Assembly (NCBI GenBank): GCA_007118975.1
Contig: SKQO01000003.1
Span: 12,509 to 76,508 of the forward strand
DNA length: 64,000 bases
Direction of reading: 5' to 3'
Source: Halobacteriales archaeon
GTDB taxonomy: Archaea > Halobacteriota > Halobacteria > Halobacteriales > SKNY01
Positions 4,754 through 29,204 of this stretch are shown here, piece after piece. The position numbers were made by a program, and so were the translations under genes. Under the pieces are notes generated by a model that saw only the letters and a program-made list of their open reading frames with translations, was not told the DNA's origin and did no database searches. Every line of letters starts with the position of its first letter. The first letter of the stretch is position 1.

Positions 4754-6466
4754 TTAGTCCATATCCGGCTCGAAATACTCCAACCGGGACTCGGGGAACG
4801 CGTGGAATTTGATGCTCCGCTCGGTCACCTCATCGAAGAGTTCCTCGGCGTCCGCTTCAGTCCATGACTCCCATTCCGCATCGAGCAAGTGCTCGTATAC
4901 GACGATCACAACCGGTTCGTCCGGCTCGTAGTCCGGATTCTGGTCCTCGACCGTTTCCTCGGCGTATACTACCCAATCGTCGATGGGGATGTCTCGTGCA
5001 TGGATGACGACGGCCGGATCGGCCTCGGGATCCTCGCGGTCGAGCACGTAATCGCCGGCATTGAACCGCTCTCTCAGCGGCGTGAGCAGCTGAGCTGCGT
5101 AGGCGATGTCGTCTTGGGCCGGCGCGAATCGTTTGGAATCCTCCGCATCGAGTGCGTCCTCCAGTCTGGCCAGCGCCCGCTGCAGACGCTGGAATGATCG
5201 ATTGGTGACGATCGGTTCGATGACCTCGGCGAAGGCAACCACCTCGTCGTAGATGAGGTCGTACAGTTGCCCGTGCACGTCCCCGGTGAGGTGCTCTCGG
5301 AACTGCCCGTTCTCGCGCAACCTTCGATCTTCGGCCGCCTCGGCGTCACTGTCTGCCCGTAACCTGGCATCGACCGCCTCACGCGCGAGCGATGCTACAG
5401 CCATCGCTTCCTCCTCATGGGCGCCGAGTCGTTCGGGAATCTCCCTAAACACCCGGTCGGTTTCCATGAAGGAGCGTTCCTTGGCGTGTCGACGAGCGGT
5501 GGTCACCTGCTCCTCGAGGACATCGGTCCGTGCAGCCACTTCCTCCTCGATATACGATGCCACCGACAGATCGACCGTTCGCTCTTCACGCGTCAGGGCG
5601 ACACTGCCGTCTCCGGATACGAAGTCAACCGTCGGTTCGGAATGGCGGTCATCGACCGCGAAGACCGAGACGCCATCGTCGGCCTCCTCGACACCCAGCG
5701 TTACCTGATGGGGGTTCTCGAAATCCGCGGTGTGGCGGGCGGTTGCCGCGTATAGCATGTCGTTCGTGTACACCCGATCGCCGGGGTCCTCCCGGCGCCA
5801 GCCATCCTCCCGAAACTGATACACCCCGAGGAACACCGCATTGCCCGCTTGGCCCGCCGCTCGATCATCAGCTCCCTCGAATTCATGGGCGATCGTCGCG
5901 AGCGCAGCGTCCGTGTCCGCTGTTACGTCATCACGCCGTGGAAACTCGACGGGTGGGATGGGTTTGTTCGGATCCTCATCCCCCGTCGGCGAGGCGACGC
6001 GAACGTCAAAGTCTTCGAGTACCCGATTGTACTCGCAATCCTCCTCGCAGGCGTCCTCCGAGCCGGCAACGGGGACCGTTTCGAGGACGCACTCGTCGTA
6101 TTCGAGATACAACCAGAGTTCGTCATCGATTGTCTCCTCCGTGGAGACCGGGACGTTGTAATCGTCTTCCGGTACCACGATCGGTCGTCCGCAGCGATCG
6201 ATCGCATACCCGGCGTCGATTGTGACCTCGAAGTCCGCATCCGAATCGACTGCGGGCGAGATTTGGGCCTCGAGACCTTCCACGACCCCGTGACCGCTCA
6301 CGTGTCGTGCGTTCCGCGTGTATAGCCCCCGATAGTACCGTTGTTCGTCCTGCATGTCTCGCGCCGACAGCAACTTTCCGTGGAAGTACCGGTTCCGTTG
6401 GGATTGCCGTAGGCTGCAGTTATCGATCGATTCCGCGTGTCCTGTCGTGTCTTCGTTATCCACCAT
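4754..6466 (-). CDS. CIS fibre/baseplate-attached protein with C-terminal haloarchaeal-type accessory domain
   Basis: N-terminal RNRYFHGKLLSARDMQDEQRY...GYAIDRCGRPIVV typical of the last gene of eCIS baseplate modules; NPHQVT motif; helical middle. Confidence 0.7.
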   Translation of the reverse strand: MVDNEDTTGHAESIDNCSLRQSQRNRYFHGKLLSARDMQDEQRYYRGLYTRNARHVSGHGVVEGLEAQISPAVDSDADFEVTIDAGYAIDRCGRPIVVPEDDYNVPVSTEETIDDELWLYLEYDECVLETVPVAGSEDACEEDCEYNRVLEDFDVRVASPTGDEDPNKPIPPVEFPRRDDVTADTDAALATIAHEFEGADDRAAGQAGNAVFLGVYQFREDGWRREDPGDRVYTNDMLYAATARHTADFENPHQVTLGVEEADDGVSVFAVDDRHSEPTVDFVSGDGSVALTREERTVDLSVASYIEEEVAARTDVLEEQVTTARRHAKERSFMETDRVFREIPERLGAHEEEAMAVASLAREAVDARLRADSDAEAAEDRRLRENGQFREHLTGDVHGQLYDLIYDEVVAFAEVIEPIVTNRSFQRLQRALARLEDALDAEDSKRFAPAQDDIAYAAQLLTPLRERFNAGDYVLDREDPEADPAVVIHARDIPIDDWVVYAEETVEDQNPDYEPDEPVVIVVYEHLLDAEWESWTEADAEELFDEVTERSIKFHAFPESRLEYFEPDMD

Positions 6467-6489
6467 TCAATGATCGCCTCCCGTCGAAC

Positions 6490-9132
6490 TCACGATAGCC
6501 GTGCCTCCTCGTCGAGCCGCGCGTGTACGCCCAGGTTGGCATCCGGTTCACGCGAACCGAGGACGCTTTCCTGGCCGAGCGTTGCCTCCTCGAGCACCAA
6601 CTCGCGGGATAGCAAGACGGTGTTTACCCCGAGATAGGTGTGAAATCCCCGACCCCCTTCCTCGCCCGGGAGCACGGTCCGTTGCCGGAGCGCCACAGCG
6701 CGTCCGCTTGCGTGGGCGGGTCGCTGAAACCTGACGATCCGGCCGATGGCGCGGAACTGTTCTTCCGGGAGATCCGGATGACAGAGCACGAGGAATCCCA
6801 TTGGACAACTGATCAGTCGCTCGAACAGCTCGGCATGAGCATCCGCGTCGATGGCATCCAGCTCGCGGCGTTCGACGATCCAGACGAGCGACTCAGAACT
6901 CGTGTCTGACAGTTCCTTGTGTCGTTCGATCGCCTCCGTCCGTGCGGTCGGCGTGAGGTGGCCGCGTTCCACCAACCGGTCCAGCTGGTGGTGCTCACGC
7001 GCGAGTGCCGGATTCCAGTCGGGGCGGTCGACATCGACCGTCTCGAGATACAACTGGATCATCTCCTCAAGGCCTTCCCGCGTCCCGCGCTTTCGGTACA
7101 GCGCCGGCGCCTGTTCGATCAACGATCGGGTTGCCTCGGTCGGCCACGCCTCGTCAACTTCCACACCGAGGAACTCGCCGAGCCACGCGAGGTGGGGCAT
7201 ATCTCCGGGGATGCCCTGGGGATCCAGGATCGTCGAAATGTCCGCGATTTCGTGATCGACGTCGGTTAGTATCCGCTCGAACAGCGCCAAAAAGCGTTCG
7301 AGGAACGCGCTCGTTTCCTCGTCCTCGCGGTACACCGCTGGAAGTTCCGATAGATACGACTCCCGTGGGTAGCTGGCATCAACCGACTGGACCGTCGGTA
7401 CTGCATCTTCTGTCCCCACTAAATCGAGTTGAACCCACAGGTATCGGCCGTTCGCGTCGAGTAACACGTCGCGTGGATCCGCCGCCGAGAGCGTCGTCCA
7501 GTCCTCGCCGGTTCCGAACGTCGCCCGTACAGGATCGGACGCGAGGATCCCCTCCGCCTCATCCTGCCAATCTGCGGCGCGAGCGGGCGTAATCGTCCGG
7601 ATCCCCCGCGTCACGAGCGACGCGATCAGACCGACATCGAGGCCCGCTAACTCCTGCGGGGACGTGATGCCACCCGCCGCCAACCGTGCTTTTCTGATCG
7701 GTCCGATCCCCGTGATCGCCTGCAAATCTCCCTCGTCCATGGACGCCGCCTCCTCCCGCCAGGTCTCGACGCGCGAGCGGGCGACACCGACCTCCTCGAC
7801 GCTCAAGATCGTCGCGATCGTCTCGGGTGACAACTCGAGGAAGTCGACCAGATCTTCGACACCCGCCTGCCTCAATCGCCGGGCCTTGCGAGGACCGATC
7901 CCGTCGACAGCTCGCAACTCACCCCGATCCGTGGCCTCGATTTGTACGTCCCGCGGTTGTGTGTTGGTCGCACGGTAGTGAACCTGCACTTGCGTATCGG
8001 CAGGAACGGTTGTTTCGAGGGTCAAGCGATGCCACTGCAGGTCATCCATGCCCGCGTCGAAGGCAGTTCTGACGACGCCGTGCACCTCTCCGGTTGTCGG
8101 ATCCGCCCGGTAGGAGCGTGATGCATCGACCCGAAACAACGAGCCATCGGCATTGACGACGAATACCTGACGGTTGTCACCGGTACCGACCGAGACCATG
8201 CGATTGCAACCTGCCCGGAAGCGGGCCTGTACATCAAAGCCCACACGTTCGGGGCGATACGAAAGCAATCGTCGCTCGCCGTCGTGGGTCGGGTCGACCC
8301 CCACGAGTAACTCGCCGGGAGCGCCGGTTGCCAGGCACCCGGGCACGAAAGACGAGTCCGTCTCCAGTGATCGGAGGGCCCTGGGTGGCACCCAGATGCT
8401 TTCGGTCGCCGGGACGGGCGGGCGGGCAAGCGCACGGCCATCGATCCGTCGAACCACGTACTCGGTCGTCTCGTCGGAATCGGGTTGCAGCCGTGGTTCG
8501 AGGACGTACAGATCGCCAGCATCGTCGAAATCCGCGTCGATCGGGTCGGTAAGACCGATGACGATCGTTCGGAACCTGGCATCCCGGGTTACCCGCGCGA
8601 GCGTTCCCCGACCGTGGTGGGGCCCAGCATCGAGCAAGAACACCTCGTCACCGTCACGCACGAAGCCGACTGGTTTGTGAATGCCACGCTCCTTGACCCA
8701 CCGGAGCTGGCCGAGCTCTCGCGAGTAGGCACGGACCGTCCCTGTGTCGACCGTTGCCACGTAGAGCGTATCGGCAGTCATGGCGATCGCCACCACCTCC
8801 CCGTCAGTCAAGTCGACGGCACCGAGCGGCGAAAGGTGGCCCTCGCCGGGTACCTGTCGATACACGCGGCCGTTCACATCAAGGAGATAGCGTGTCCCAC
8901 ACGGTTCGATGTCCACATCGACGATCTCGAGGGAGGAGGCGGGTTCGACGACCTTCTGGGGTCGACGGACCGTCGCGTCGATCAACAGATCGGTTTTGTC
9001 CCGATACGATCGAGCGCTTGTGGTCGAGACCCGGATACCCGTCTCCGCTTCCTCGTCGAGGACGTCCACGTTCCGTCCATCCCAGTCCGTCCACGATTGC
9101 GGCGTGTGGGTTCCACGTGCGGCGAAATCCAT
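6490..9132 (-). CDS. CIS baseplate wedge/phage tail-I-like protein with N-terminal beta-propeller-like region and two HhH modules
   Basis: YLSELPAVYRED..FLERFLALFE..LAWLG..LYRKRGTREGL (P2 gpI-like); two GIGP HhH motifs. Confidence 0.8.
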   Translation of the reverse strand: MDFAARGTHTPQSWTDWDGRNVDVLDEEAETGIRVSTTSARSYRDKTDLLIDATVRRPQKVVEPASSLEIVDVDIEPCGTRYLLDVNGRVYRQVPGEGHLSPLGAVDLTDGEVVAIAMTADTLYVATVDTGTVRAYSRELGQLRWVKERGIHKPVGFVRDGDEVFLLDAGPHHGRGTLARVTRDARFRTIVIGLTDPIDADFDDAGDLYVLEPRLQPDSDETTEYVVRRIDGRALARPPVPATESIWVPPRALRSLETDSSFVPGCLATGAPGELLVGVDPTHDGERRLLSYRPERVGFDVQARFRAGCNRMVSVGTGDNRQVFVVNADGSLFRVDASRSYRADPTTGEVHGVVRTAFDAGMDDLQWHRLTLETTVPADTQVQVHYRATNTQPRDVQIEATDRGELRAVDGIGPRKARRLRQAGVEDLVDFLELSPETIATILSVEEVGVARSRVETWREEAASMDEGDLQAITGIGPIRKARLAAGGITSPQELAGLDVGLIASLVTRGIRTITPARAADWQDEAEGILASDPVRATFGTGEDWTTLSAADPRDVLLDANGRYLWVQLDLVGTEDAVPTVQSVDASYPRESYLSELPAVYREDEETSAFLERFLALFERILTDVDHEIADISTILDPQGIPGDMPHLAWLGEFLGVEVDEAWPTEATRSLIEQAPALYRKRGTREGLEEMIQLYLETVDVDRPDWNPALAREHHQLDRLVERGHLTPTARTEAIERHKELSDTSSESLVWIVERRELDAIDADAHAELFERLISCPMGFLVLCHPDLPEEQFRAIGRIVRFQRPAHASGRAVALRQRTVLPGEEGGRGFHTYLGVNTVLLSRELVLEEATLGQESVLGSREPDANLGVHARLDEEARLS

Positions 9133-11139
9133 TCAGAACCCCCTCCCACACCGTTGGCCTTGATCTTCGATTCGCACGGTTACCGATCCCGGGAAGGGGA
9201 GTGCGGTCGGGTCACCGGCCAGCACCGCACCGTTCCCAACCGACACGTCGATGACGTCTTCGACGCCGTCGAGCCCTTCGAGGAGCGCGAAAAGCTCGGA
9301 ACGGTGGACCGGACGCTCGAACGGCCATCCCGCTCCAGTTGTGCCGGCAAGCGGGTCAAGAAACGCCACGACGGCCTCCCGAATGGTTTCCTCGACGCGA
9401 TCGGATGATCGGCCGTCCTCGAGTGTAATCGCCGTCGTGACCGACACCTCGACGTACCGGGGCGCCTCGACGCGTACTCGGTCTGTGATGAGTGTGTGTT
9501 CGCGGAGATGGGCTGCCACGGCCGCCCGAAAGCCCTCAGTGGGAATCGACCGGCGGCGGTGTGGGGGCGCCTCCGGGACCACGACGACAGTAACAGGCGG
9601 TACCGCACACGAATCACCCGTCGTTTCCACGAACGCGTGTGCGCGCTGAACATCGACTGCGGGTGTGTGCAACGCGAGTTCGCGGAAATCAGCAGGTGTG
9701 ACTGCTCGGGTGGGCCGATCCGTCCGATCGCGGGCCCGGGCGATCGCGTCCGCCAGCGGTTCCGCCTCTTCGCCGCCGGACGGGGATTCGACGACCCGCC
9801 CACCGCGTACCGCATCGGCAGCGGGGAATTGCCACGTCGCCTCCCCGTCGAGGTTACCCGCTTTCCCGCCACCGTACGTCACACAATCAGCGATCACTTC
9901 GGCGCCGACTGGTGGGATTGTGCCCCGTCGACCGTCGCCGAACGTGACTGTCGCTGCACTCCGGTCCAACACGCAATGGGGATCGTCGGGCGAGGACGCG
10001 CTGAAATCATCGACGACCTCCCAACGGGTGTCTCCCACGGTAACGTGGGCCGCCACGACCGGCCCCACGGGAAACACGAATTGCTGGTTCGCTTCCCCCG
10101 TGGTGTGGTGGGGACCAACATCGGCGGGGAGCGCCTCATCATCCGTGCGTCGTTCGAGCGGGACGTCGGTCGCTTGCCATTCGTGTTTCACGGGCACCAG
10201 ATTCGTGCCGATACGCTCGAACAGTGGAGGATGCTCGAGCCGGGTCGGGCCGCTCGATCGCCCGTCACCCTCCGCTACAAGACGGCCACGAATCCAGTAG
10301 CGATCAATATCCACACCGAGAATGCGCGCCGCCTCGTGTTCGTCCTGCCAGTCCGTCGGCACTGCGAGTGTCAGCTGGCCACTCCGGTACAGATGGGTTG
10401 TCCCGTCGCGTTCGATCTCGATCGGTTTCCATACGTCATCGTCGTGCCAGGCGTCTGGTCGGGTACAATGTTCCCACTGCAACTGGAGGGACGGCTCGAA
10501 CGCCATCTCGTCATCCCGCTCCAGCGCGGCCGCGAGCGAGTCGCCCTCCCGGTGGAAGGCCAGCGTGAGCCGGTCGGATGCGGCGAAGGGGTCTCGATCG
10601 AACCCGAGATAGAGAACGTTACCCTCCCTGCCATCACGGCCCAGCCCCGGAAAGTGTCGGTCGCCACGGTCGTTGTCCGCGGTGTGATCAGTGCGACCCC
10701 GATCGGTCTCGGTAATCACGCGATCAACCGACGCTGGGGCGAGGCGGGTCCCGGCGGAAACCTCGAACGAGACGCGCGACCCATCCGGTCGCGTGGCCGC
10801 TACTGGGGTCTTCGGGGAGAGAAGCCACGAGGTATCCTCGAGCTCGGATGCGTCGACGGCGGCGGTCACCGCAACCTCCAGCACGCCGGTCGCCCGTTGC
10901 GGCGGCCGTGGTCGAATTCCGACCAAGTCGAGGTATTTCCGCCGGTGTTCATCCGTTACCTGATCGAGTTGATATCCATAGGTTTCGACGAGCCAGGCCA
11001 GCAGCTCGATGATCGTGATACCCGGATCGTGTTCGTTGTGATCGGTCCAGGCGGGCGCGAGCACCGGAAGCCGTTTGAGGGCGTCCTCTCGCAGCTCCTC
11101 GAACGTCACATCGTCCAGATCGGGAGCGTCGAGCGCCAC
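9133..11139 (-). CDS. Baseplate J/gp47-like assembly protein (Afp11/12 class)
   Basis: PDLDD..WTDHNEHDPGITIIELLAWL, FGDGRRGTIPP, RAVTPADF, GWPFER. Confidence 0.9.
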   Translation of the reverse strand: MALDAPDLDDVTFEELREDALKRLPVLAPAWTDHNEHDPGITIIELLAWLVETYGYQLDQVTDEHRRKYLDLVGIRPRPPQRATGVLEVAVTAAVDASELEDTSWLLSPKTPVAATRPDGSRVSFEVSAGTRLAPASVDRVITETDRGRTDHTADNDRGDRHFPGLGRDGREGNVLYLGFDRDPFAASDRLTLAFHREGDSLAAALERDDEMAFEPSLQLQWEHCTRPDAWHDDDVWKPIEIERDGTTHLYRSGQLTLAVPTDWQDEHEAARILGVDIDRYWIRGRLVAEGDGRSSGPTRLEHPPLFERIGTNLVPVKHEWQATDVPLERRTDDEALPADVGPHHTTGEANQQFVFPVGPVVAAHVTVGDTRWEVVDDFSASSPDDPHCVLDRSAATVTFGDGRRGTIPPVGAEVIADCVTYGGGKAGNLDGEATWQFPAADAVRGGRVVESPSGGEEAEPLADAIARARDRTDRPTRAVTPADFRELALHTPAVDVQRAHAFVETTGDSCAVPPVTVVVVPEAPPHRRRSIPTEGFRAAVAAHLREHTLITDRVRVEAPRYVEVSVTTAITLEDGRSSDRVEETIREAVVAFLDPLAGTTGAGWPFERPVHRSELFALLEGLDGVEDVIDVSVGNGAVLAGDPTALPFPGSVTVRIEDQGQRCGRGF

Positions 11140-14530: not shown

Positions 14531-14814
14531 TCGATGATCACCGACGTGGCGCCACCGACGATGGTGTTCGGCGGTCCGCTTTCCGCGATGGCGTCCCCGA
14601 GCCTGGCGGCCGGCATCCCGTTGATAAGCACCGACGTACTCCCGCCCTGGACGACACCGCCGACGTGGGTGACCGGAGAACTCACGGGACAGGCGTGATA
14701 GTCAGAGATGGCTCGCCACGCCGGCAGTCCCTCGATGAGGACGTCGGGACTGCCCGGACCGGAGAGGGGCGTTCCATGGGCGGTCGGATCAGTCGCTCGT
14801 GCTGCTGGTGGCAT
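14527..14814 (-). CDS. PAAR spike-tip protein
   Basis: MPPAAR..., PAWR, PAARLGD repeats; no C-terminal extension. Confidence 0.95.
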   Translation of the reverse strand: MPPAARATDPTAHGTPLSGPGSPDVLIEGLPAWRAISDYHACPVSSPVTHVGGVVQGGSTSVLINGMPAARLGDAIAESGPPNTIVGGATSVIIE

Positions 14815-21750: not shown

Positions 21751-23946
21751 TCACTCGAAGGCGGTTCGATACTCGCCAAACGTCTCGAAATCGTGGAGCT
21801 TCCCGATCTTTTGAAACTCGCGGCGCAAGGCCCTGACCAGATGGTCCATCGTTACAGTGCCTGTATCGGCCCCCATCAACGAGGCCGTCAGGGCGACGTT
21901 CTTGATCGACCCCCCGGCCAGTTCGAAGGTGGCGAGATACTCGTAGTCTAGCTCCGCAACTGGTGTATCCGCCGGAAAGATTCCCTTCCAGATCTCCCGT
22001 CGTGCGGTCTCGTCGGGCATCGGGAAATCGACGGTCGCATTGATCCGTCGCTTGAACGCGTCGTCGATGTTGTCCTGGAGGTTCGTCGCCATGATGACGC
22101 ACCCGTCGTGGTCTTCCATCCGCTGGAGCAGGTAATCCACCTCGACGTTGGCGTACCGGTCCCGTGAATCGCCGATGTCGGTTCGTTCACCGAAGAGGGC
22201 GTCCGCCTCGTCGAAAAACAGAATGGCATTGCTGTGCTCGGCCTGGTCGAACACTCGTCCGAGGTTCTTCTCCGTTTCCCCGATGTACTTGCTGAGGATC
22301 GAGGATAGATCGAGTTTGTAAAGCGAAAGACCCACGTCGGCGGCGATTACCTCAGCTGCCATCGTCTTCCCCGTTCCAGGCGGACCAGTGAACAGGAGAT
22401 TGATGCCATTCCCCAGACTGAACTTCTCTTCGAACCCCCATTGCTCGTAGACCGTCCCCCGGTGTCTGATCCCAGCGGCGACTTCCTGCAAATGCGCCAG
22501 CGTGTCCGGCGGTAGCACGATGTCGTTCCAGTCGTACGCCGGCTCGAGCCGTTGTGCGCACCGATCCAGTGCTGATTCACTATGCATCCGACACGCTTGT
22601 TCAAAATCGGCCCTCGAGGGTGCGCCCTCGGCGATTGTCGCTGCCGTTGCAACGGCGTCCTCGATCTCGCCGCGTGTGAGGCGAAACAGTCCCGCCAGCG
22701 TCTCGAGATCAATACTGTCAGGCACCCCGCCGATATCCTTCCAGATCGCTCGTCGTTGTTCGTAGCCGGGGCGCTCGAAAGGAATTCGAGTAAGGCGATG
22801 GCGATCCAAGATCGATTGCTGTGTGGCGGACATGAGTACGTCACCGGAGACGAACACGTGACACGGGATCTCGGCGAGTTCCGAAACTACATCCTCGAAC
22901 GAGGGAACCTGCCGATCCACTCGTGTTTCGTGCTCGACCTCAGCCTGTTCGTCTCGTTCCTGTGCTTCGAGCGCCGATACCCCGTAGAGATGGAGTGGCG
23001 CACCACGGAGCCGTGCATCTCGGGCGAGTGCACCCACCTTCGTTTCGACCGGCTCATCGAGAAGTTCGTCCGCATCTATTCGGTAGAGCGGCACGTCCAC
23101 GCGGCCGGCGACCGCCTCGATTGCGAGGCAGGCTCTGCGCACGTCCGGGCCCGTACAGGCTACAAATTCGAAGCGGTCGGGCGAACGTGGTGGCTTGTTT
23201 GTCCCAGCGAGCTGGTTTGAAATCGAGCGAAGCTGTGATCGGTGAGTCCCGATCCCTGCAACGTCGTCGAGATCGGTTGTTGGGCGCACGAAAGTACCTT
23301 CGGTCTCCAGCTCCCCTGTTGCATCGTCACCCTCCAACAAATACGAAACGACGGCTGAGGGGATTCGAGCCTCGCGCCCGGGACGGGTGGACCCACCTTC
23401 GAGACGAACCAGTAGTTCTCTCCGAAGGGTGCCGCGTGGTGCAAACAATCCCGTGAGCGAGAGCGGATCGGTCGTTCCCGCCGCCAGCACCCGTCGGAGC
23501 AGTTCCTCGGTGGGTCGTACCCGCGTGATGTCATCGCGGAGGTACCCGAAAATCTTCTCGTACTTTCGGTCGAGGTCGGGTAGCAACGCCAGCAGGAACG
23601 CGTCTCGTTCGAGGGGCGTTAATCCAAACTCGTCGGCGACCCTGACGAGACGGAGATCGACACCCTCGGCAGCACTCTTCCGTTCTTTTCGTCGCACGTG
23701 ATCGGTCAAGCGATCGAGTTCCGGCGAACGCGTGGCCGACCCGGACGAGCGTTCGGTTTCGGGGTCAAGTAGTCGAGCCACTTCTTCGTCGGAAACAAAA
23801 TAGCCGCCCATCCCCTGTTCACGATCGACACCGTCGCTCCAGCAATCCTCGACGTGGCGACGGAGCAACAGCTCGGCCCGGCCACACTCCGCTCGCAGGT
23901 GTTCCAGATTGCTCTCGTATGCTTCTACCGCCTGTTCGCGTGCCAT
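21751..23946 (-). CDS. CIS AAA+ ATPase (Afp15/Pvc15-like)
   Basis: Walker A GPPGTGKT, SKYIGETEKNL, Walker B LFFDEAD, DRYANVE. Confidence 0.93.
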   Translation of the reverse strand: MAREQAVEAYESNLEHLRAECGRAELLLRRHVEDCWSDGVDREQGMGGYFVSDEEVARLLDPETERSSGSATRSPELDRLTDHVRRKERKSAAEGVDLRLVRVADEFGLTPLERDAFLLALLPDLDRKYEKIFGYLRDDITRVRPTEELLRRVLAAGTTDPLSLTGLFAPRGTLRRELLVRLEGGSTRPGREARIPSAVVSYLLEGDDATGELETEGTFVRPTTDLDDVAGIGTHRSQLRSISNQLAGTNKPPRSPDRFEFVACTGPDVRRACLAIEAVAGRVDVPLYRIDADELLDEPVETKVGALARDARLRGAPLHLYGVSALEAQERDEQAEVEHETRVDRQVPSFEDVVSELAEIPCHVFVSGDVLMSATQQSILDRHRLTRIPFERPGYEQRRAIWKDIGGVPDSIDLETLAGLFRLTRGEIEDAVATAATIAEGAPSRADFEQACRMHSESALDRCAQRLEPAYDWNDIVLPPDTLAHLQEVAAGIRHRGTVYEQWGFEEKFSLGNGINLLFTGPPGTGKTMAAEVIAADVGLSLYKLDLSSILSKYIGETEKNLGRVFDQAEHSNAILFFDEADALFGERTDIGDSRDRYANVEVDYLLQRMEDHDGCVIMATNLQDNIDDAFKRRINATVDFPMPDETARREIWKGIFPADTPVAELDYEYLATFELAGGSIKNVALTASLMGADTGTVTMDHLVRALRREFQKIGKLHDFETFGEYRTAFE

Positions 23947-24390
23947 TTATCCGACTCCGAACGCCCGGAGGCCCTCGTGTGCAATCTCGAGGGTTTCGAT
24001 CGCGACGTCGCTCCCCTCCGCGGAGAGGTCGGGACCCTCCCAGCGCACGGGATATCCGTTCTGGAACTCCCACCCTCGCACCTCGACGCCGGATTGATCG
24101 AGCAGAATGATACGGCCAGTTCGTCGCTGTGCGGGTCCATGAAGCGACTCGGCGACCCACGTCCACAGCTCGTGTGAATTCGTGAGTCCTTTCTGAAACG
24201 TGAGGTTTGGAAAGGTAATTCGCGTCGGCAGCGAGTGGGTGTAGTGGTTGCGCCCGCCCTCCTTGTACTCCTCGGTCTCGACCTCCATCTCGAGACCCTG
24301 TACATCAGAGAAGCCCGCAACGAGCAACGAGTCGAGTTCGACGTGAAACCGGAAATCGAGATACGGGTCGATCCGCTCGCCGGTCGTCAT
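23947..24390 (-). CDS. Tail tube protein (T4 gp19-like), second copy
   Basis: DPYLDFRFHVE..GFS..YKEGG..W.F...P..W.GP.L.A....AIE.LE..HEG. Confidence 0.93.
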   Translation of the reverse strand: MTTGERIDPYLDFRFHVELDSLLVAGFSDVQGLEMEVETEEYKEGGRNHYTHSLPTRITFPNLTFQKGLTNSHELWTWVAESLHGPAQRRTGRIILLDQSGVEVRGWEFQNGYPVRWEGPDLSAEGSDVAIETLEIAHEGLRAFGVG

Positions 24391-24406: not shown

Positions 24407-24574
24407 TCATGGCTCCGATTCCTCGTTCATCCGTTCGTTGATGGCGCTTATCTCCTCGCACCACCGGCGACGTTCCCAGTGGGGCATCTCGAGAATCGTC
24501 TCGTGCTCCCAGCCGAAGTGGTAGGCCACGAAGGCGACCTCCTCGAACAGTTGGTCGACTGGATAGCCCGTCAT
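24407..24574 (-). CDS. DUF6760-like small CIS protein (55 aa; not in ORF track)
   Basis: Manual translation MTGYPVDQLFEEVAFVAYHFGWEHETILEMPHWERRRWCEEISAINERMNEESEP; ATGA overlap with upstream chaperone stop. Confidence 0.85.
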   Translation of the reverse strand: MTGYPVDQLFEEVAFVAYHFGWEHETILEMPHWERRRWCEEISAINERMNEESEP

Positions 24575-24972
24575 TCCGCCTCCGCGTTTCCCGCGACCAC
24601 CTCGTCCTGACCGTGTACCTCGACTGTGAAGGACTCACCACAGTCCGGACAGGTTGTCTCGATTGCGTCCGCCCCTTGGGTGTTGATGCGCTCATACAGC
24701 CCCTGCAAGTATTCCAGATCGGAGACGAACAGGTTCTCGATGACGTGCGGTGTCACATTGTCGAGTGTGCCGAGGCGCGTCACGACTCGTGCGAGCAGGA
24801 TGACTGTCAGATAGGAACCGTTCGACTGTACCCGTGGATCTTTCAGAGGCTTGATCTCGTCTGCCGCCGTCGCGAGCCGCATCACCCCCTCCCGATGGAG
24901 ATTCCCCTCGTCGTCCGCGTATCCCTGCGGCAGAGTGAACTCGAATTCCGTTTGGAGGACGCCTCCACTCAT
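24571..24972 (-). CDS. Tail assembly chaperone-like CIS protein with C-terminal CxxC
   Basis: EFEFTLPQGY..HREGVMRLATAADE..DLEYLQGLYERIN..CPDCG; follows tube gene. Confidence 0.8.
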   Translation of the reverse strand: MSGGVLQTEFEFTLPQGYADDEGNLHREGVMRLATAADEIKPLKDPRVQSNGSYLTVILLARVVTRLGTLDNVTPHVIENLFVSDLEYLQGLYERINTQGADAIETTCPDCGESFTVEVHGQDEVVAGNAEAE

Positions 24973-25001: not shown

Positions 25002-25442
25002 TCACTCCACCCGGGCCATCCCTTCGTGTTCGATCTCCATGCTCTCGATCGCGACCTCTGCACCTTCGGCGTCGAGGTCCGGCGCGTCGTAGCTCGACGG
25101 CCACGCCTTCCGGAACTCCCAGCGGGCGCCCGGGTTACCTTCCTCGTCGAGGACGATCACCGCGATATCCTGACGAGCGTCGTCGACATTGCCTCGTTCG
25201 ACCTGTTCGCGCCACTCCCAGAGCTCGATGGAATCGTCGGTGACGCCAGACTCGAGCGACAGCGTGCCGAAGTCGTTGAGCCCCCAGAGCTTGCGCATGG
25301 TAGGCCGATCGTTTCCTTCGCGATACTCCACGGGATCCGTCGAGTTCTCCGGCAAGGTACAGCTGCTGAAGCCGGCCTTGACGAGGTCGTCAAACTCGAG
25401 CAGGAATCGCGTATTCCGGTAGGGTCCGTGTCTGTCTGCCAT
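25002..25442 (-). CDS. Major tail tube protein (T4 gp19-like)
   Basis: PYRNTRFLLE..AGFS..EYREG..W.F.KAWP..EHEG; directly after sheath. Confidence 0.94.
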   Translation of the reverse strand: MADRHGPYRNTRFLLEFDDLVKAGFSSCTLPENSTDPVEYREGNDRPTMRKLWGLNDFGTLSLESGVTDDSIELWEWREQVERGNVDDARQDIAVIVLDEEGNPGARWEFRKAWPSSYDAPDLDAEGAEVAIESMEIEHEGMARVE

Positions 25443-25454: not shown

Positions 25455-27743
25455 TTAGTCCGCACTCCCCGTCCACTGGGAAATTCTGAAGATGACGAAT
25501 TCGGCCGGTCGAACCGGCGCCACGCCGATCTCACAGATCAGCCGTCCGTTCTCGATGTCGCTCTGGGTCATCGTGCTCCGGTCGCATTTCACGAAGAACG
25601 CCTCGTCCGGGGAGGTCCCCATGAGGGCACCGTCCTCCCAGACGTCCGTGAGGAAGTTTTTAATCGTTTGGCGCACTCTCGCCCAGAGTTGCTCGTTGTT
25701 CGGTTCGAACACCACCCACTGGGTTCCTTCCTCGATCGAGCCGCGGAGGAACAGGAACAGGCGGCGGACGTTGACGTACCGCCAGTTCGGATTGCTGGAG
25801 GCGGTCCTGGCACCCCATACCCGAATTCCCCGACCACGGAAGGCACGGAGGCAGTTCACTCCACGGGGGTTGAGGACCTCCTGTTCGCCCTTGGTGATCG
25901 TCCGTTGTAATCCCTCGATGCCACGAATGACCTCGTTGGCGGGCGCCTTGTGGACGCCGTGATTGGCGTCGCTCCGAGCAAAGATCCCGGCAATGTGGCC
26001 TCCGGGCGGCATCTCCTCGACCATGCCCGTGATCGGATCGATGACCTCGACCCACGGATAGTAGAACGCGCCCATGTCGGTGTCCTCGGGGGGTCTCAGG
26101 TCACCGACGGGGCCGGGGTTTGCCTCCGCCTGGAGGATCGCGAACCGATCGTCCATCGCGTGACAGTGCTCGATCAGCGGATCGGTCACGTCGTGTTCGT
26201 GTTCGTCGGGAATGCAGACGATGGCGAGTTCGTCGAGTTTTTCGAAGCCCGCGAACCCGGTTCGGTCCTCGGGGGGCAGTGTTGCGTCCCCCTCGTAATC
26301 ACCTCGCTCGATCTCGTTGTCTTCGCCGCCGTCGAGCCAGATCGGACCGGCGGCCGGATCGGGACGGCCTTTGCCGGTCTTTTCCAGATCGACCAGAACG
26401 GAGACGTTGTTCACTTGCTGGACGTAGAAGTTGCTCGAGGACTCGTGGGGGGAGAGGTCGTCGAAGACCTCTTCGACGTCGGGCGATGCGACCTCGTCGT
26501 TGTCGGGGTCGGCGTCTCCGGCTTTTGCGTCCGCATAATCATCAGCATCGCGCCAGTATCGAATCTTCAGTTTGAACAGTTCGTTGCGACCGGGCTCGTA
26601 CATCGAGGCGTCCTCGATCACGATCGCGACGTGATCGCCCCACTCGCCCGGGCCAACGGCGTCGACGTCCACTGCCTCGTCGGTCCACCCGCTCAGCTCG
26701 ATGACAATCGGAGCATTGTCGCCGTCGTGGTCGAGAAGGAGGGTCGCTTCCCGTCCTCCAATCGAGTGATTCGGCGAGAACGTCACCCCAACGGTGGTCT
26801 CGGGTTCCACGTCGCCATTCGGGCCAGGTGTATCATCGTCATCATCCTCCTGGCCGAGCGTTATCGTCCCGTCGTCATCGAGATCGTACTGCTGGTGATC
26901 CGGGCCGATAATGATGGAGTCCTCCAGGTTTAGTTCGATGTCCTCGCCGCCTTCGTGCTGGACCACCAGGTCAAGCGTCGCCTCGCCGTCGTCCTCGTCT
27001 GGATCGACCATGCCGAAGTCAAGCCTATCTTTGTCGACGGAGAGAACGTCCGCGTCGGACTCGTCGGCGTTTTCCCCCGTCAGGGTGACAGCAACCGGTT
27101 CGACGTCGCCACCCGGATCAATCACCAATCGCGCCCAGTGTCGCCAGGTGTCGCTCTCGGGCTCGAAGGTAACGTCGAGTTGCTTCCCATCCTCCCCTGG
27201 TTCGATGACTTGTGTCTCGCCATCCCCGGTGTCGTCCTCCCACGCGTACGAAAAACCGGTATCCTCCATCGTGGACTCGACGGTTACATCGTCGTCCAGG
27301 ACAACTTCGATCGGATCGTCGTCAGTATCTCCCGTATGCTTCAAAACGACTGGCTCGGTCGAGTCTTCGTCCCCATCGACGGACCCGAACGCAAGCTCGA
27401 TTCGATCGGCCGTCAGTACCGTCGGGAGCCGATCGTCAAACGGCGTTCCGAGCGGAATCCCCGCACTCGCGGATCGATCTTCCTCAGCCGTGATACGACC
27501 GAGGAAACACCGGCTTCCGCCGTTGGCGAAAAAGCCCTCCACCGCACTGGCCAGGTAGCTATCCGGGAGGTGTTCACCAAAGGTTCGTTCGTAATCGGCA
27601 AAGCTGGTCAGGAGCCGCGGATCCGTCGGCCCACGCTCCGTGGGACCGAGAAATCCCGCCGTACTGGTGCTGACCCCTTCCAGTGGGGCCGCACCACGTT
27701 CCTCCTCTTCGACGTAAACGCCAGGAGCAAGATACTCAGCCAT
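25455..27743 (-). CDS. Contractile tail sheath protein with two inserted Ig-like domains
   Basis: MAEYLAPGVYVEE, FFANGG, GVHKAPAN, VWGART, YVNVRRL, FEPN, PAEFVIFRI. Confidence 0.96.
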   Translation of the reverse strand: MAEYLAPGVYVEEEERGAAPLEGVSTSTAGFLGPTERGPTDPRLLTSFADYERTFGEHLPDSYLASAVEGFFANGGSRCFLGRITAEEDRSASAGIPLGTPFDDRLPTVLTADRIELAFGSVDGDEDSTEPVVLKHTGDTDDDPIEVVLDDDVTVESTMEDTGFSYAWEDDTGDGETQVIEPGEDGKQLDVTFEPESDTWRHWARLVIDPGGDVEPVAVTLTGENADESDADVLSVDKDRLDFGMVDPDEDDGEATLDLVVQHEGGEDIELNLEDSIIIGPDHQQYDLDDDGTITLGQEDDDDDTPGPNGDVEPETTVGVTFSPNHSIGGREATLLLDHDGDNAPIVIELSGWTDEAVDVDAVGPGEWGDHVAIVIEDASMYEPGRNELFKLKIRYWRDADDYADAKAGDADPDNDEVASPDVEEVFDDLSPHESSSNFYVQQVNNVSVLVDLEKTGKGRPDPAAGPIWLDGGEDNEIERGDYEGDATLPPEDRTGFAGFEKLDELAIVCIPDEHEHDVTDPLIEHCHAMDDRFAILQAEANPGPVGDLRPPEDTDMGAFYYPWVEVIDPITGMVEEMPPGGHIAGIFARSDANHGVHKAPANEVIRGIEGLQRTITKGEQEVLNPRGVNCLRAFRGRGIRVWGARTASSNPNWRYVNVRRLFLFLRGSIEEGTQWVVFEPNNEQLWARVRQTIKNFLTDVWEDGALMGTSPDEAFFVKCDRSTMTQSDIENGRLICEIGVAPVRPAEFVIFRISQWTGSAD

Positions 27744-27808
27744 GGTCAACTCCAACGCCTGACCCGCCCTGTTCGTGCTTGACGGACATGGGTAATCACC
27801 ATATCCAA

Positions 27809-27822: not shown

Positions 27823-27918
27823 ACCCTATTGATGGATCAGAACGCAAACTAATGAGAACAATGGCCGGCCGACATGGTGAAAGCGACCCCTTCTCTTCGG
27901 AGATCAACGGGAGGCGCT

Positions 27919-28623
27919 TCACGACGAATTCGGTTCGAGAACGATGTCGGCAACGATAGTCTGGCCTTCCTTAATCACCACCGTGTATGCCGCCTCGAGG
28001 TCCGTGTTAGGTTTGCTTGCGAGGATCGTCGGGTCCGCACTCCCGATTGTCACGAACATGTCCTCGTCCGTGGAAGCGTTGTCGTTCGGCGGTCCGTTTC
28101 CCGGAGTGTCAGACGAGGAGTCACCGCGGTCATCGAGATATGGTTCGACGTTTACGAACGGAAGGACGAATTCGCCGTCGGGACTGCTCCGGGTCTCAGC
28201 GACGACCTCATCGTCGTCGAGGACTTCGAGCACGACATCCCCAATTCGGGGAGTTTCCTCCCCCTCCGCCACGCGAGTACTGCCGCGAACCAGGGTGCTG
28301 TGACTTGGAAATCGGTAAGCCGGTGCAGGTAGTAGTTCGATGTCCGACACCATTTCCTCGGTGTCATCTTCCTCGAGATCGACGACGTCGCACTCGCACG
28401 TCTCCGGCAAGTACGGGCCGTTCGGCTCCACGGCCACCGTGACCGCTGTGATCTCATCCGGTAAGTCCGTGACCACGTAGTAGCCACTCCTCGTTCGGAC
28501 GATACCCTCCGGACGGTCCACAAGTTCAATCGAGAACCCACCAGTTGGTGGGCGGCCGGTCACCGAATCGGTTACTTCGATCACGAGGGCGAGTTTCAGG
28601 CGATCGACCTCCCACTGCACCAT
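27919..28623 (-). CDS. CIS-associated protein with carboxypeptidase-regulatory-like beta-sandwich domains
   Basis: D..TG.P, L.P.P.Y.FP...T.VRG, T..DG.F motifs; coupled to Pvc16-like gene. Confidence 0.65.
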   Translation of the reverse strand: MVQWEVDRLKLALVIEVTDSVTGRPPTGGFSIELVDRPEGIVRTRSGYYVVTDLPDEITAVTVAVEPNGPYLPETCECDVVDLEEDDTEEMVSDIELLPAPAYRFPSHSTLVRGSTRVAEGEETPRIGDVVLEVLDDDEVVAETRSSPDGEFVLPFVNVEPYLDDRGDSSSDTPGNGPPNDNASTDEDMFVTIGSADPTILASKPNTDLEAAYTVVIKEGQTIVADIVLEPNSS

Positions 28624-29204
28624 TATCGATCACTCCGGCCGTGACTAAACGTCGCTTCTGTCACTCGTTCAATCGGTGTCTCACGTTCGGATTCGATCAG
28701 CACTGGCGTCACGGCACAGGTTACCGACGGGAGATACGGCGTCTCCTGGAACGTGTTCCAGACATCGAGGATTTCCCCCATCGATCGGTTCTCCAGTGCA
28801 ATGTGGAGTCTATCATCGCCACCGAGATCCCCCTTGAGAGCTGACCCGCTGATGATCCGGTTGTCCCAGATAATCCGCATCGCCTCACCGAGTTCCTTGT
28901 GGTAGTCGAGCCTGGATGGCGCTTGTTCGTGGGCCTCATCCTGTGGCGAAGGGTGGGCAGTCACAAGGTAGGACAACTCGAGGGCGAGCGGATCACCGGC
29001 TGCGACATCATCTTCGACCGGTTGCGGTTCGTTCGAGAGATGGATGTTCCGTTCGACATCGTAGAGAAACAACGAGAGCCCTGCCTGGCTCGGGTCGAAG
29101 TCAGCTGGAGAAGCAAGTGCCACGGTGACCCCCGAGGAAACTTCCGCGCGGAGCAGGCTGACGAGCGTTTCACCGACATCTGCGATGGCGTCCGAACCCG
29201 CCAC
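28623..29204 (-). CDS. Pvc16/DUF4255 family cap (tail terminator)
   Basis: AIADVGETL..LSLFLYDV..N..L.L.YLVTA..W.....Y.PSV...V.PV; GTG at 29204 preceded by GGAGG. Confidence 0.87.
   Translation of the reverse strand: MAGSDAIADVGETLVSLLRAEVSSGVTVALASPADFDPSQAGLSLFLYDVERNIHLSNEPQPVEDDVAAGDPLALELSYLVTAHPSPQDEAHEQAPSRLDYHKELGEAMRIIWDNRIISGSALKGDLGGDDRLHIALENRSMGEILDVWNTFQETPYLPSVTCAVTPVLIESERETPIERVTEATFSHGRSDR

What the first reader, a model, noticed from the sequence alone, without database searches (positions are those of the whole stretch)
4754..29204. Complete archaeal contractile injection system with no visible membrane anchor, lysis or immunity genes
Seen: the full Afp/PVC-type structural set, with no capsid, terminase or integrase. 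Established: such loci encode eCIS or T6SS-like nanomachines, and haloarchaeal examples exist but few are characterised. Seen: no obviously multi-TM anchor, holin or small immunity ORF lies inside the cluster. Inference: either a free cytoplasmic/released particle or one using unlinked or novel anchors. The variable parts (Ig-decorated sheath, HhH wedge, fibre tip, DUF4157 cargo) suggest a distinct subtype.
Basis: partly seen in the sequence, partly recalled or inferred. Interest (0 to 1): 0.8.

Follow-up and report, generated by a model that had tools for sequence, protein, structure and literature searches.

The report
Anchor-less haloarchaeal contractile injection system
This is a complete phage-tail-like injection machine without a virus head in a salt-loving archaeon; it belongs to a published but unstudied branch that lacks the membrane anchor of its relatives and probably builds a much shorter, free particle.

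Summary
Window 4754-29267 carries 19 tightly packed genes for a full contractile injection system (CIS), with no head, packaging or integrase genes.

It is not a new kind. Zachs et al. 2024 (PMC11566945) split haloarchaeal CIS into two groups. One has a conserved 6-TM anchor and was shown to act like a T6SS. The other has no anchor and was not studied. This cluster belongs to the second group:
- No homologue of the anchor was found in its 78%-complete genome.
- Its Cis11a lies outside the anchor-bearing clade.

Findings I did not see in the papers read:
- A low-complexity protein upstream of cis7 (17166-18626) has a conserved C-terminal motif and fits a tape measure. Its frame is 438-639 aa in 10 of 10 anchor-less genomes and 1063-2388 aa in 35 of 35 informative anchor-bearing ones.
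- The anchor-less group also has an extra 234-aa protein, HhH inserts in Cis12, variable Cis13 tips and larger cargo proteins.
- One of four unlinked DUF4157 cargo proteins ends in an intact M15 peptidoglycan peptidase.

Best reading (about 0.45): a short, unanchored, probably released particle. A T6SS-like machine with another anchor and a cytoplasmic machine remain open.

The parts
4754..6466 (-). Cis13 (570 aa), peripheral baseplate or fibre protein. It has a conserved N-terminal ~460 aa and a unique acidic tip of ~110 aa.
   Evidence: NCBIfam CIS13_fam E 1.1e-71, 242 bits, below the equivalog cut-off of 370. Residues 1-460 align to the Cis13 proteins of both groups, and the tip does not. 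The tip (residues 466-562) hits phrog_2118 at E 6.6e-7. No Pfam or PDB lead was found.
6490..9132 (-). Cis12 (880 aa), baseplate wedge protein with an inserted helix-hairpin-helix module
   Evidence: Tail_P2_I E 1e-9. HHH_5 E 5.1e-11 at residues 405-462. CIS12_fam E 1e-127, below the cut-off. PDB 9gtp_E E 3.8e-7. HHH_5 is also present in 4 of 9 other anchor-less Cis12 proteins and in 0 of 6 anchor-bearing ones.
9133..11139 (-). Cis11b (668 aa), Baseplate_J-like
   Evidence: PF04865 E 3.6e-13. TIGR02243 E 3.7e-88.
11143..14142 (-). Cis11a (999 aa from the internal ATG; the longest frame runs to 14235), Baseplate_J-like cage protein
   Evidence: PF04865 E 2.3e-14. TIGR02243 E 4.1e-65. The nearest relative has 51% identity.
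14144..14530 (-). Cis9, gp25-like wedge protein
   Evidence: GPW_gp25 E 5.5e-27.
14527..14814 (-). Cis10, PAAR spike tip
   Evidence: PAAR_motif E 6e-16.
14817..15452 (-). Cis8b, the gpV/gp5-like OB half of a split VgrG spike
   Evidence: Phage_base_V E 5.1e-29. VgrG_rel positions 367-541.
15449..16504 (-). Cis8a (351 aa), the gp27/gpD-like hub half of the split VgrG
   Evidence: VgrG_rel positions 5-243, E 2.6e-24. phrog_52 'tail protein' E 1.2e-31 and a baseplate hub phrog.
16501..17169 (-). Cis7, tube initiator with a C-terminal LysM domain
   Evidence: CIS_tube E 6.1e-37 and LysM E 1.5e-6.
17166..18626 (-). Candidate tape measure protein (486 aa). It is low-complexity and has a conserved C-terminal helix motif.
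   Evidence: STPGA residues make up 50% of the protein. Its C-terminal motif is shared by the gene upstream of cis7 in all 16 loci examined. A profile of that motif hits once in each of the 46 Cis11a-positive genomes of 401 and in none of the others. No Pfam, NCBIfam, PHROG or PDB match was found.
18939..21716 (+). Cargo or effector protein (925 aa). It has an N-terminal DUF4157/eCIS_core domain with an HExxH motif and a near-orphan C-terminal region of 726 aa.
   Evidence: PF13699 E 9.8e-27 at residues 110-186. The motif HELAH is visible in the translation. The C-terminal part has only one relative (E 8.6e-30) among 1.84 billion representatives. The word-indexed search found none besides itself. 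PDB and the Atlas gave nothing.
21751..23946 (-). Cis15, AAA+ ATPase with an N-terminal winged-helix domain
   Evidence: WHD E 2.6e-31 and AAA E 2.3e-29.
23947..24390 (-). Cis5, tube adaptor
   Evidence: Phage_T4_gp19 E 9.8e-42. CIS5_fam E 1.1e-38, below the cut-off.
24407..24574 (-). DUF6760 protein (55 aa)
   Evidence: PF20546 E 4.9e-27. The frame has gene-like composition.
24571..24972 (-). Tail assembly chaperone-like protein (133 aa) with a C-terminal zinc-ribbon-like CxxC
   Evidence: phrog_508 'tail assembly chaperone' E 5.4e-8. It is 63-80% identical across the other anchor-less loci.
25002..25442 (-). Cis1, inner tube protein
   Evidence: Phage_T4_gp19 E 8.5e-38. CIS1_fam E 5.5e-29, below the cut-off.
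25455..27755 (-). Cis2, sheath (766 aa; the likely start is the ATG four codons in). It carries a ~255-aa acidic insert that is probably two Ig-like domains.
   Evidence: Phage_sheath_1 and Phage_sheath_1C. PDB 9ezm_A E 6.8e-168 and 8bky_A E 6.6e-111, with no counterpart for residues ~100-358. The insert gives a weak Cep192_D4 hit, E 2.9e-5.
27919..28623 (-). 234-aa protein with two CarboxypepD_reg-like beta-sandwich regions, specific to the anchor-less group and placed next to the cap gene
   Evidence: PF13620 E 3.3e-4, below the cut-off. Homologues are found in 8 of 9 other anchor-less loci and in none of 6 anchor-bearing loci. Only 18 proteins of this family were found among 5.8 billion clusters.
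28623..29267 (-). Cis16, tail terminator or cap
   Evidence: Pvc16_N E 1.9e-34.

Best explanation
The locus encodes a complete contractile injection system of the anchor-less haloarchaeal lineage (the second, 'orange' Cis11a group of Zachs et al. 2024).

Shown:
- All parts of a sheath-tube-baseplate-spike-cap machine are present and intact.
- An AAA+ ATPase, a chaperone-like pair and one DUF4157 cargo gene are present.
- Four more DUF4157 cargo genes lie elsewhere in the genome.
- No relative of the 6-TM anchor of the T6SS-like group is found.

Inferred:
- The low-complexity protein upstream of cis7 is the tape measure.
- Its frame is about 3.4 times shorter than in the anchored group (median 473 against 1598 aa), so the particle should be about a third as long.
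- The particle assembles free in the cytoplasm and is not docked to the producer's membrane.
- It most likely acts as a released, tailocin-like particle.
- Its peripheral baseplate proteins (Cis12 with HhH, Cis13 with a variable tip) would bind the target or the matrix.
- Contraction would drive the PAAR-tipped spike and the DUF4157 cargo into the target.
- One cargo is a peptidoglycan peptidase, so some targets may be bacteria.

My odds: membership of the anchor-less lineage about 0.9; tape measure assignment about 0.7; released, extracellular mode about 0.45.
For: Gene set.

Lineage:
- Cis11a is found in 46 of 401 class genomes.
- The 6-TM family (profile A2) is found in 36 of 401 genomes, all among those 46. 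In 34 of the 36 it lies 6-17 kb from Cis11a.
- The window's genome is one of the 10 Cis11a-positive genomes without it.
- A local hmmsearch without filters over 22,427 frames gave a best E of 0.05. As a control, the same profile found 5 of 6 anchor-bearing loci and 0 of 10 anchor-less ones.
- In the tree (51 rows), all 25 anchor-bearing rows included form one clade (SH-aLRT 91). All 10 anchor-less rows lie outside it. The window pairs with G312 (support 99).
- All 10 anchor-less loci share one contiguous gene order, with minor rearrangements in G035 and G313. No conserved flanking gene or conserved multi-TM gene was seen.

Tape measure:
- The position, composition and C-terminal motif hold in all 16 loci examined.
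- The motif profile hits exactly the 46 CIS genomes, once each.
- Frames are 438-639 aa in 10 of 10 anchor-less genomes and 1063-2388 aa in 35 of 36 anchor-bearing ones. The 36th is cut by a contig end.
- A chaperone-like gene lies nearby.
- Precedent: the uniform 420-nm Aureispira T6SS is ascribed to cis14 (passages).

Extracellular reading:
- Cis13 has non-alignable C-terminal extensions in 8 of 10 anchor-less loci, against a uniform 413-419 aa in the 4 anchor-bearing Cis13 proteins seen.
- One anchor-less Cis13 (L031/L115) ends in 2 PASTA domains plus HhH (E 1e-23 and 1e-18).
- Three related sheaths carry strong Ig-like inserts.
- An own-genome cargo protein has Peptidase_M15_4 (E 1.5e-12, above the cut-off) with its zinc-ligand motifs intact.
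Against: - No lysis or release gene is present, and no archaeal extracellular CIS has been shown.
- There is no particle, localisation or expression evidence for this locus.
- The genome is only 78% complete, so an unlinked anchor cannot be excluded.
- The TM scan is crude.
- The anchored group is a single clade, so the anchor/tape-measure-length correlation may rest on very few independent events.
- In bacterial and Methanosarcina relatives the same protein ranges from 305 to 1933 aa, with modes unknown. Length alone therefore does not give the mode, and the ancestral state is unclear.
- PASTA was seen in one of 10 anchor-less loci only.
- A peptidoglycan-directed domain was seen in one of 21 cargo proteins of anchor-less genomes.
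- HhH domains are typical of cytoplasmic DNA-binding proteins.
- After the haloarchaeal sheath, the closest solved sheaths are those of the cytoplasmic Streptomyces CIS.
- The tape measure assignment has no structural or family support.
Confidence: 0.45

Rival explanations
1. It is a T6SS-like machine that fires from the producer's membrane, as in H. borinquense. It would be held there by a different, unlinked or intrinsic anchor, for example through Cis11a, Cis12 or Cis13 themselves.
For: - It has the same component set as the T6SS-like group, including two Cis11 proteins, Cis12, Cis13, PAAR and DUF4157 cargo.
- The paper could not resolve what contacts the membrane and names Cis11/12/13 as candidates.
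- Peptidoglycan-degrading cargo is also usual for bacterial T6SS (established knowledge).
- 22% of the genome is unseen.
Against: - No multi-TM protein lies in the cluster.
- No conserved membrane gene lies next to any of the 10 anchor-less loci.
- The anchor family is absent from all 10, nine of which are 97-99% complete.
- Cis12 and Cis13 carry soluble binding modules (HhH, PASTA), not hydrophobic ones.
Confidence: 0.3
2. It is a cytoplasmic CIS of the Streptomyces type. Particles float free and fire inside the producer under stress, causing regulated death or lysis of the producer.
For: - No anchor and no release genes are present.
- The sheath is close to the S. coelicolor sheath (8bky_A, E 6.6e-111).
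- The Zachs paper reports that haloarchaeal Cis11 groups nearest to Gram-positive Bacillota.
- An HhH module would find a ligand (DNA) in the cytoplasm.
Against: - Streptomyces clusters lack tail-fibre genes and depend on the membrane protein CisA (passages). This cluster has a Cis13 with a variable tip.
- It has PAAR and five DUF4157 cargo genes, one aimed at peptidoglycan. The producer presumably lacks peptidoglycan (haloarchaea as a rule have none; recalled).
- A CisA homologue was not tested.
Confidence: 0.15
3. It is a decaying or silent remnant (a prophage tail module or a dead CIS) with no present function.
For: No RNA evidence is available. The source is a metagenome-assembled genome.
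Against: - All 19 frames are intact, tightly coupled and of host-like composition.
- The layout is conserved in 9 other genomes of different families.
- No head or packaging genes are present in the window, the contig or the genome.
- No flanking direct repeats are present.
Confidence: 0.05

Closest known systems
Haloarchaeal T6SS-like CIS of Halogeometricum borinquense and Haloferax elongans (Zachs et al. 2024, PMC11566945; sheath PDB 9ezm)
   Same: It has the same set of cis genes, including the split Cis8a/b, two Cis11 proteins, Cis12, Cis13, Cis15, Cis16 and DUF4157 cargo with orphan copies elsewhere in the genome. The sheath matches 9ezm_A at E 6.8e-168.
   Different: - No Hbor_38620-type 6-TM gene is found.
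- Cis11a lies outside that clade.
- The cluster is contiguous, not split.
- The candidate tape measure is 486 aa, against 1063-2388 aa.
- It has an extra 234-aa protein, HhH in Cis12, a longer Cis13 and larger cargo proteins (median 726 against 423 aa).
- There is no downstream partner gene for the in-cluster cargo.
- The NCBIfam CIS1/5/12/13 models match only below their cut-offs.
The anchor-less ('orange') haloarchaeal CIS group of the same paper (12 of 41 clusters; uncharacterised)
   Same: It is a haloarchaeal Cis11a outside the anchored clade and has no anchor homologue. This is where the window's cluster belongs.
   Different: It is a divergent member. The nearest relative among 401 genomes is 51% identical in Cis11a. 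Whether this organism was in the paper's Fig. 5A could not be checked: figures and supplements are not held.
Extracellular CIS: Afp, PVC, AlgoCIS
   Same: It has the Pvc16_N cap, an AAA+ ATPase, gp19-type tubes, a DUF4157 cargo tag, a fibre-position gene, and is capsid-less. The AlgoCIS sheath is 92 nm long (passage), the size class predicted here.
   Different: Cis13 is not an Afp13-type fibre family. There is one sheath gene. There is no lysis cassette. The host is archaeal. Release has not been shown.
Cytoplasmic CIS of Streptomyces coelicolor (PDB 8bky, 9gtp; CisA paper PMC12237407)
   Same: The sheath is the next closest (E 6.6e-111). The Cis12 core matches 9gtp_E. Its particles are free-floating.
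   Different: Streptomyces has no fibre gene and needs CisA. The authors state that a tape measure gene is absent (passages). This cluster has a Cis13 and a candidate tape measure.
Thylakoid-anchored tCIS of Anabaena (PDB 7b5h)
   Same: It is a related class II CIS. The sheath matches 7b5h_AO at E 2.5e-45.
   Different: tCIS is anchored by extensions of its baseplate components (passage). That these extensions are transmembrane is recalled. No hydrophobic segment was found in Cis11a/b, Cis12 or Cis13 here.

Membership tests
Haloarchaeal T6SS-like CIS (anchored group, Zachs 2024) | Full cis1-cis16 structural gene set | tested here: met
Haloarchaeal T6SS-like CIS (anchored group, Zachs 2024) | Conserved 6-TM membrane protein (Hbor_38620 type) associated with the cluster | tested here: not met
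   The profile of 5 members gives 0 hits in the own genome (local best E 0.05). No multi-TM protein lies in the cluster. The genome is 78% complete.
Haloarchaeal T6SS-like CIS (anchored group, Zachs 2024) | Cis11a inside the anchored clade | tested here: not met
   In the tree of 51 rows, the window lies outside the clade that holds all 25 anchor-bearing rows included (SH-aLRT 91). This was a quick search without bootstrap.
Haloarchaeal T6SS-like CIS (anchored group, Zachs 2024) | Extended particles bound to the cytoplasmic membrane; contact-dependent killing | not testable with these tools
   This needs cryo-tomography and killing assays.
Anchor-less haloarchaeal CIS group (Zachs 2024) | Haloarchaeal CIS cluster without an Hbor_38620 homologue, with Cis11a outside the anchored clade | tested here: met
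   The layout is shared with 9 other such genomes.
Extracellular CIS (Afp/PVC/AlgoCIS type) | Sheath, tube, baseplate, spike, Afp16-type cap and Afp15-type ATPase, with no capsid genes | tested here: met
Extracellular CIS (Afp/PVC/AlgoCIS type) | Tape measure protein that sets particle length | tested here: inconclusive
   There is a candidate by position, composition, conserved C-terminal motif and perfect co-occurrence with CIS. It has no family or structure match.
Extracellular CIS (Afp/PVC/AlgoCIS type) | Target-binding tail fibres | tested here: inconclusive
   Cis13 has a unique tip here. A PASTA+HhH tip occurs in one relative. No known fibre family matches.
Extracellular CIS (Afp/PVC/AlgoCIS type) | Release from the producer and action from outside | not testable with these tools
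   No lysis gene was seen. This needs particle preparations.
Cytoplasmic CIS of Streptomyces type | No fibre gene; CisA membrane adaptor encoded at the fibre position | tested here: not met
   A Cis13 homologue occupies the fibre position. No membrane protein lies there. A direct search for CisA was not run.
Thylakoid-type tCIS | Transmembrane extension on baseplate proteins | tested here: not met
   No hydrophobic segment at or above the cut-off was found in Cis11a/b, Cis12 or Cis13 (a crude scan).
Contractile-tailed provirus | Capsid, portal, terminase, integrase | tested here: not met
   There are 0 hits for PF05065, PF03237, PF04860 and PF03354 in the genome. The flanks and the whole 76.5-kb contig are housekeeping genes. 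The genome is 78% complete. Divergent archaeal capsid families may be missed.

The most novel reading that the evidence does not exclude
The anchor-less haloarchaeal group, this locus included, would be the first extracellular (tailocin-like) contractile injection system of archaea. It would be a short particle whose length is set by a so far unrecognised low-complexity tape measure. Its baseplate periphery would carry exchangeable nucleic-acid- and peptidoglycan-binding modules. At least part of its cargo would be aimed at bacteria, which would explain why no immunity gene is needed.
Probability: 0.25. Interest if true: 0.8.

Novelty: new member of a known kind. Interest (0 to 1): 0.5.

Why it matters
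Two questions are stated as open in print:
- What does the anchor-less haloarchaeal CIS group do? (Zachs 2024)
- Do archaeal CIS ever target bacteria? (PMC12352652: this 'remains to be tested')

The locus itself is from an uncultured organism. The comparison built around it still gives concrete, cheap tests in cultured relatives. The named records in the anchor-less part of the tree are:
- Halopenitus sp. H-Gu1
- Haloarcula mannanilytica MD-130
- Halobium salinum YJ-8-S
- Halogeometricum pallidum JCM 14848

What the comparison provides:
- a predicted three- to four-fold difference in sheath length, tied to one gene
- a candidate tape measure for systems in which two papers report none
- a DUF4157-M15 fusion that links a CIS cargo tag to a bacterial cell-wall enzyme in an archaeon

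Tried and rejected
- a scan of genome contigs with a single Cis11a sequence found no relative. Searches replaced it.
- no RNA holder was listed. A metatranscriptome contig set from the same sample gave only ~30-letter matches. This says nothing about expression. Two DNA metagenome runs hold the locus in pieces with 0-3 differences, but they may be the source sample.
- Cargo C-terminal region: nothing from PDB, the Atlas (its own model has pLDDT 0.42) or the word-indexed search. The exhaustive search found one relative.
- Cis13: PDB and the Atlas gave only unnamed clusters. The tip alone matched designed pentatricopeptide proteins with no matched stretch, which I take as a composition artefact. 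The phrog_2118 hit remains an unexplained lead.
- The tape measure candidate and the 234-aa protein have no PDB match.
- Structure prediction of the 234-aa protein: the job was interrupted. New jobs were not accepted. No fold was obtained, so no fold search was run.
- Complex prediction (tape measure C-terminus with Cis8a and Cis7) was not available.
- Idea that peptidoglycan-directed cargo marks the whole anchor-less group: rejected. Only 1 of 21 cargo proteins of anchor-less genomes has such a domain. The others show a nuclease, a PT-HINT/Ntox33 toxin, DUF6310 or nothing. 0 of 22 in five anchored genomes have one.
- Idea that outgroups give the polarity of tape measure length: rejected. Both short and long forms occur among bacteria and Methanosarcina.
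- Flanking att-like repeats: none.
- Neighbouring genes as hidden parts: not conserved next to other clusters. This covers the Tat-lipoprotein-like ORF 29644-31089 and the ORF 32833-34008 with two hydrophobic segments.
- The sigma-70 and terminator scan of the 312-nt gap does not apply to archaeal promoters.
- Earlier-findings look-ups by place and by words gave nothing on this genome.

Full report
**What is there**

The window is G000:C33:12509-76508 of a 175-contig, 3.43-Mb, 60% G+C draft genome rated 78% complete. Its proteins are strongly acidic. The genome falls in the haloarchaeal class sampled by the genome search.

Between 4754 and 29267 lie 19 genes. Eighteen are on the - strand and one on the + strand, with overlaps or gaps of a few bases. 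The only larger gaps are 312 nt (18627-18938) and 163 nt (27756-27918).

Pfam, NCBIfam and PHROGs name them as follows:
- Cis16 cap
- a 234-aa protein with weak CarboxypepD_reg-like hits
- sheath
- tube
- a tail assembly chaperone-like protein of 133 aa
- DUF6760
- tube adaptor
- AAA+ ATPase
- a DUF4157/eCIS_core protein of 925 aa (+ strand)
- a 486-aa low-complexity protein
- LysM tube initiator
- a VgrG split into a hub half and an OB half
- PAAR
- gp25
- two Baseplate_J proteins
- a Tail_P2_I protein with an HhH insert
- Cis13

Two frames in the ORF list (24387-24695 and 24692-25063) are basic and spurious. The real genes there are 24407-24574 and 24571-24972.

**The negative claims**

- A hydropathy scan found no multi-TM protein in the cluster. 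The method is crude.
- The two gaps hold no credible small gene.
- The flanks are housekeeping genes. They include serA, a PALP enzyme, a LysX/ArgX-type cluster, photolyase and LigA.
- There is no tRNA gene in the window.
- There are no bracketing direct repeats.
- Capsid, portal and two terminase families give 0 hits in the whole assembly, and the sheath family gives only the hit in this cluster. The assembly is incomplete, so this is 'not found', not 'absent'.

**It is a published kind**

Zachs et al. 2024 (PMC11566945; Results and Discussion read) showed the following:
- H. borinquense and H. elongans use such clusters as membrane-bound, contact-dependent, T6SS-like weapons with DUF4157 toxin-immunity pairs.
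- 41 of 350 haloarchaeal genomes have a cluster.
- Cis11a splits them into 29 clusters with a 6-TM membrane protein (Hbor_38620 type) and 12 without.
- They suggest the latter have 'a different mode of action'.
- They found no tape measure (cis14) homologue.

**Placing the window**

Cis11a of the window finds relatives in 46 of 401 class genomes. The best has 51% identity.

In six loci with a split layout I found a mutually homologous ~370-aa 6-TM protein in five (30-42% identity). Its profile hits 36 of 401 genomes. All 36 are among the 46, and in 34 the hit lies 6-17 kb from Cis11a.

Ten Cis11a-positive genomes lack it, including the window's. A filter-free local search of 22,427 frames gave a best E of 0.05. 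The control found the protein in 5 of 6 anchored loci and in 0 of 10 others.

A tree of 51 Cis11a C-terminal regions was built:
- It held 35 handles, 7 named haloarchaeal loci and 9 bacterial or Methanosarcina outgroups.
- It was a quick LG+G4 search with SH-aLRT only.
- Only 25 of the 36 anchored genomes were in it, because one search returned 30 loci.
- All 25 anchored rows fall in one clade (support 91). All 10 anchor-less rows lie outside it as a basal grade.
- The window is sister to G312 (support 99).

All ten anchor-less loci share the window's contiguous gene order. In G035 the cap block sits at the other end, and in G313 cis13 is inverted. No gene outside cis16..cis13 is conserved among them.

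The NCBIfam CIS1, CIS5, CIS12 and CIS13 models match the window's proteins well below their equivalog cut-offs. This agrees with a position outside the characterised group.

**What distinguishes the anchor-less group**

(a) Candidate tape measure.
- In all 16 loci examined, the gene directly upstream of cis7 is low-complexity (40-55% S, T, P, G, A). It ends in a shared motif of about 28 residues.
- A profile of that end hits once in each of the 46 CIS genomes and in none of the other 355.
- The open frames are 438-639 aa (median 473) in the 10 anchor-less genomes.
- They are 1063-2388 aa (median 1598) in 35 anchored ones. The 36th frame (G326) is cut by the end of its contig.
- Several features fit a tape measure, but no family or structure supports it. 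These are the position before the tube initiator, a chaperone-like gene nearby, the extended composition and the conserved C-terminus.
- The same end is found by the profile in 6 of 14 bacterial or Methanosarcina loci at E <= 0.01. Lengths there are 305-1933 aa.

(b) A 234-aa protein next to the cap gene occurs in 8 of 9 other anchor-less loci and in 0 of 6 anchored loci. The family is tiny: 18 proteins were found, and all the named ones are haloarchaeal.

(c) HHH_5 is inserted in Cis12 in the window and in 4 of 9 other anchor-less loci. It is in 0 of 6 anchored loci.

(d) Cis13 is 413-419 aa in the four anchored examples seen. In the anchor-less loci it is 423-952 aa. Eight of ten have C-terminal extensions that do not align with each other. 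In one of them (also in the named locus L031, Halopenitus sp. H-Gu1) the extension is two PASTA domains plus HhH.

(e) Sheaths of the anchor-less group are 508-1011 aa. Three have strong Ig-like (ASH/HYDIN/Cep192) inserts. The window's 255-aa insert gives only weak hits of that kind.

(f) DUF4157 proteins are larger in anchor-less genomes. The median is 726 aa over 21 proteins, against 423 aa over 22 proteins from five anchored genomes. Start codons are uncertain.

**Cargo and immunity**

The genome has five DUF4157 proteins: one in the cluster and four on other contigs.

The in-cluster protein carries the HExxH motif of the domain. Its 726-aa remainder has a single relative among 1.84 billion representatives. 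It converges on the ATPase gene, so there is no room for a downstream partner.

The orphan on contig C5 ends in Peptidase_M15_4 (E 1.5e-12, above the cut-off). Both zinc-ligand motifs are present around an acidic insert. As far as I recall, haloarchaea as a rule have no peptidoglycan, so such a cargo would need no immunity protein and points to bacterial targets. This is inference.

This is the only peptidoglycan-directed domain I saw among 21 cargo proteins of anchor-less genomes, so it is not a trait of the group.

**Mechanism**

Shown:
- an intact machine with all parts
- no relative of the known anchor
- a short version of the length-correlated protein
- soluble binding modules on the two peripheral baseplate proteins

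Inferred:
- Particles assemble free on the hub, with their length set by the 486-aa protein.
- If length scales with that protein, they are about a third as long as in the anchored group.
- The H. borinquense contracted sheath is 220 nm. The AlgoCIS sheath is 92 nm.
- The particles are not docked to the producer's membrane.
- I favour release and action from outside (about 0.45).

Reasons for favouring release:
- Variable fibre tips, a PASTA tip in a relative, Ig-like sheath decoration and a cell-wall enzyme cargo all make most sense outside the producer.

Against release:
- There are no release genes, no data on particles or expression, and no precedent in archaea.
- The anchored group is a single clade.
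- Tape measure length varies among bacterial relatives.

A T6SS-like mode with another anchor (0.3) and a Streptomyces-like cytoplasmic mode (0.15) stay open.

**Verdict**

In the papers I searched and read I did not find the candidate tape measure, its strict length split, or the DUF4157-M15 fusion. Supplements and figures were not available, and these features may be annotated there.

Noticed in passing
L056:3229-5070 (Streptomyces geranii); also L053, L055, L071, L038, L047, L060: In bacteria and Methanosarcina the ORF directly upstream of cis7 is low-complexity and ends in the same type of motif. The haloarchaeal profile finds it in 6 of 14 loci at E <= 0.01. The Streptomyces one (613 aa) resembles it only by eye. 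The CisA paper says the S. coelicolor cluster has no tape measure gene although its particles are uniform in length. This protein may be the overlooked one.
   Followed up: partly
own genome, contig C5:1084-2760 (locus L141:454-2130, - strand): An orphan 558-aa DUF4157 cargo protein ends in an intact M15 (VanY-like) peptidoglycan peptidase domain, split by an acidic insert of about 150 aa. Another orphan on C79 has DUF5995 and a weak OmpA-like hit.
   Followed up: partly
L031:16549-19404 (Halopenitus sp. H-Gu1) and L115:4028-6886: Cis13 of an anchor-less cluster ends in two PASTA domains and an HhH module. Cis12 of the same cluster also carries HhH.
   Followed up: partly
window 4754-5110 (Cis13 residues 466-562): The unique tip of Cis13 matches positions 16-113 of phrog_2118, a phage family labelled HNH endonuclease (E 6.6e-7). 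It may be a nucleic-acid-binding module, which would fit the HhH theme. No fold could be obtained.
   Followed up: partly
window 4355-4453: Three tandem copies of a 33-nt unit (100, 85 and 100% identity) lie in the gap between serA and cis13.
   Followed up: no
window 29644-31089: A 481-aa ORF with a twin-arginine, lipobox-like N-terminus and no Pfam family lies directly beside the cap gene. It is not conserved next to other clusters.
   Followed up: partly
G198:C1:872228-873523 and G126:C60:98458-99132: In two anchored-group genomes the anchor gene looks broken or displaced. In G198 it is in two pieces, 740 kb from the cluster. In G126 it is a partial match with an in-frame TGA. These may be natural anchor-loss variants.
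   Followed up: no
G136:C2:174018-205210 (loci L152, L153): An array of 12 DUF4157 matches (11 ORFs) in 31 kb lies next to an anchored-group cluster.
   Followed up: no
window 39540-40886: A 448-aa right-handed beta-helix/NosD-like protein lies among housekeeping genes.
   Followed up: no
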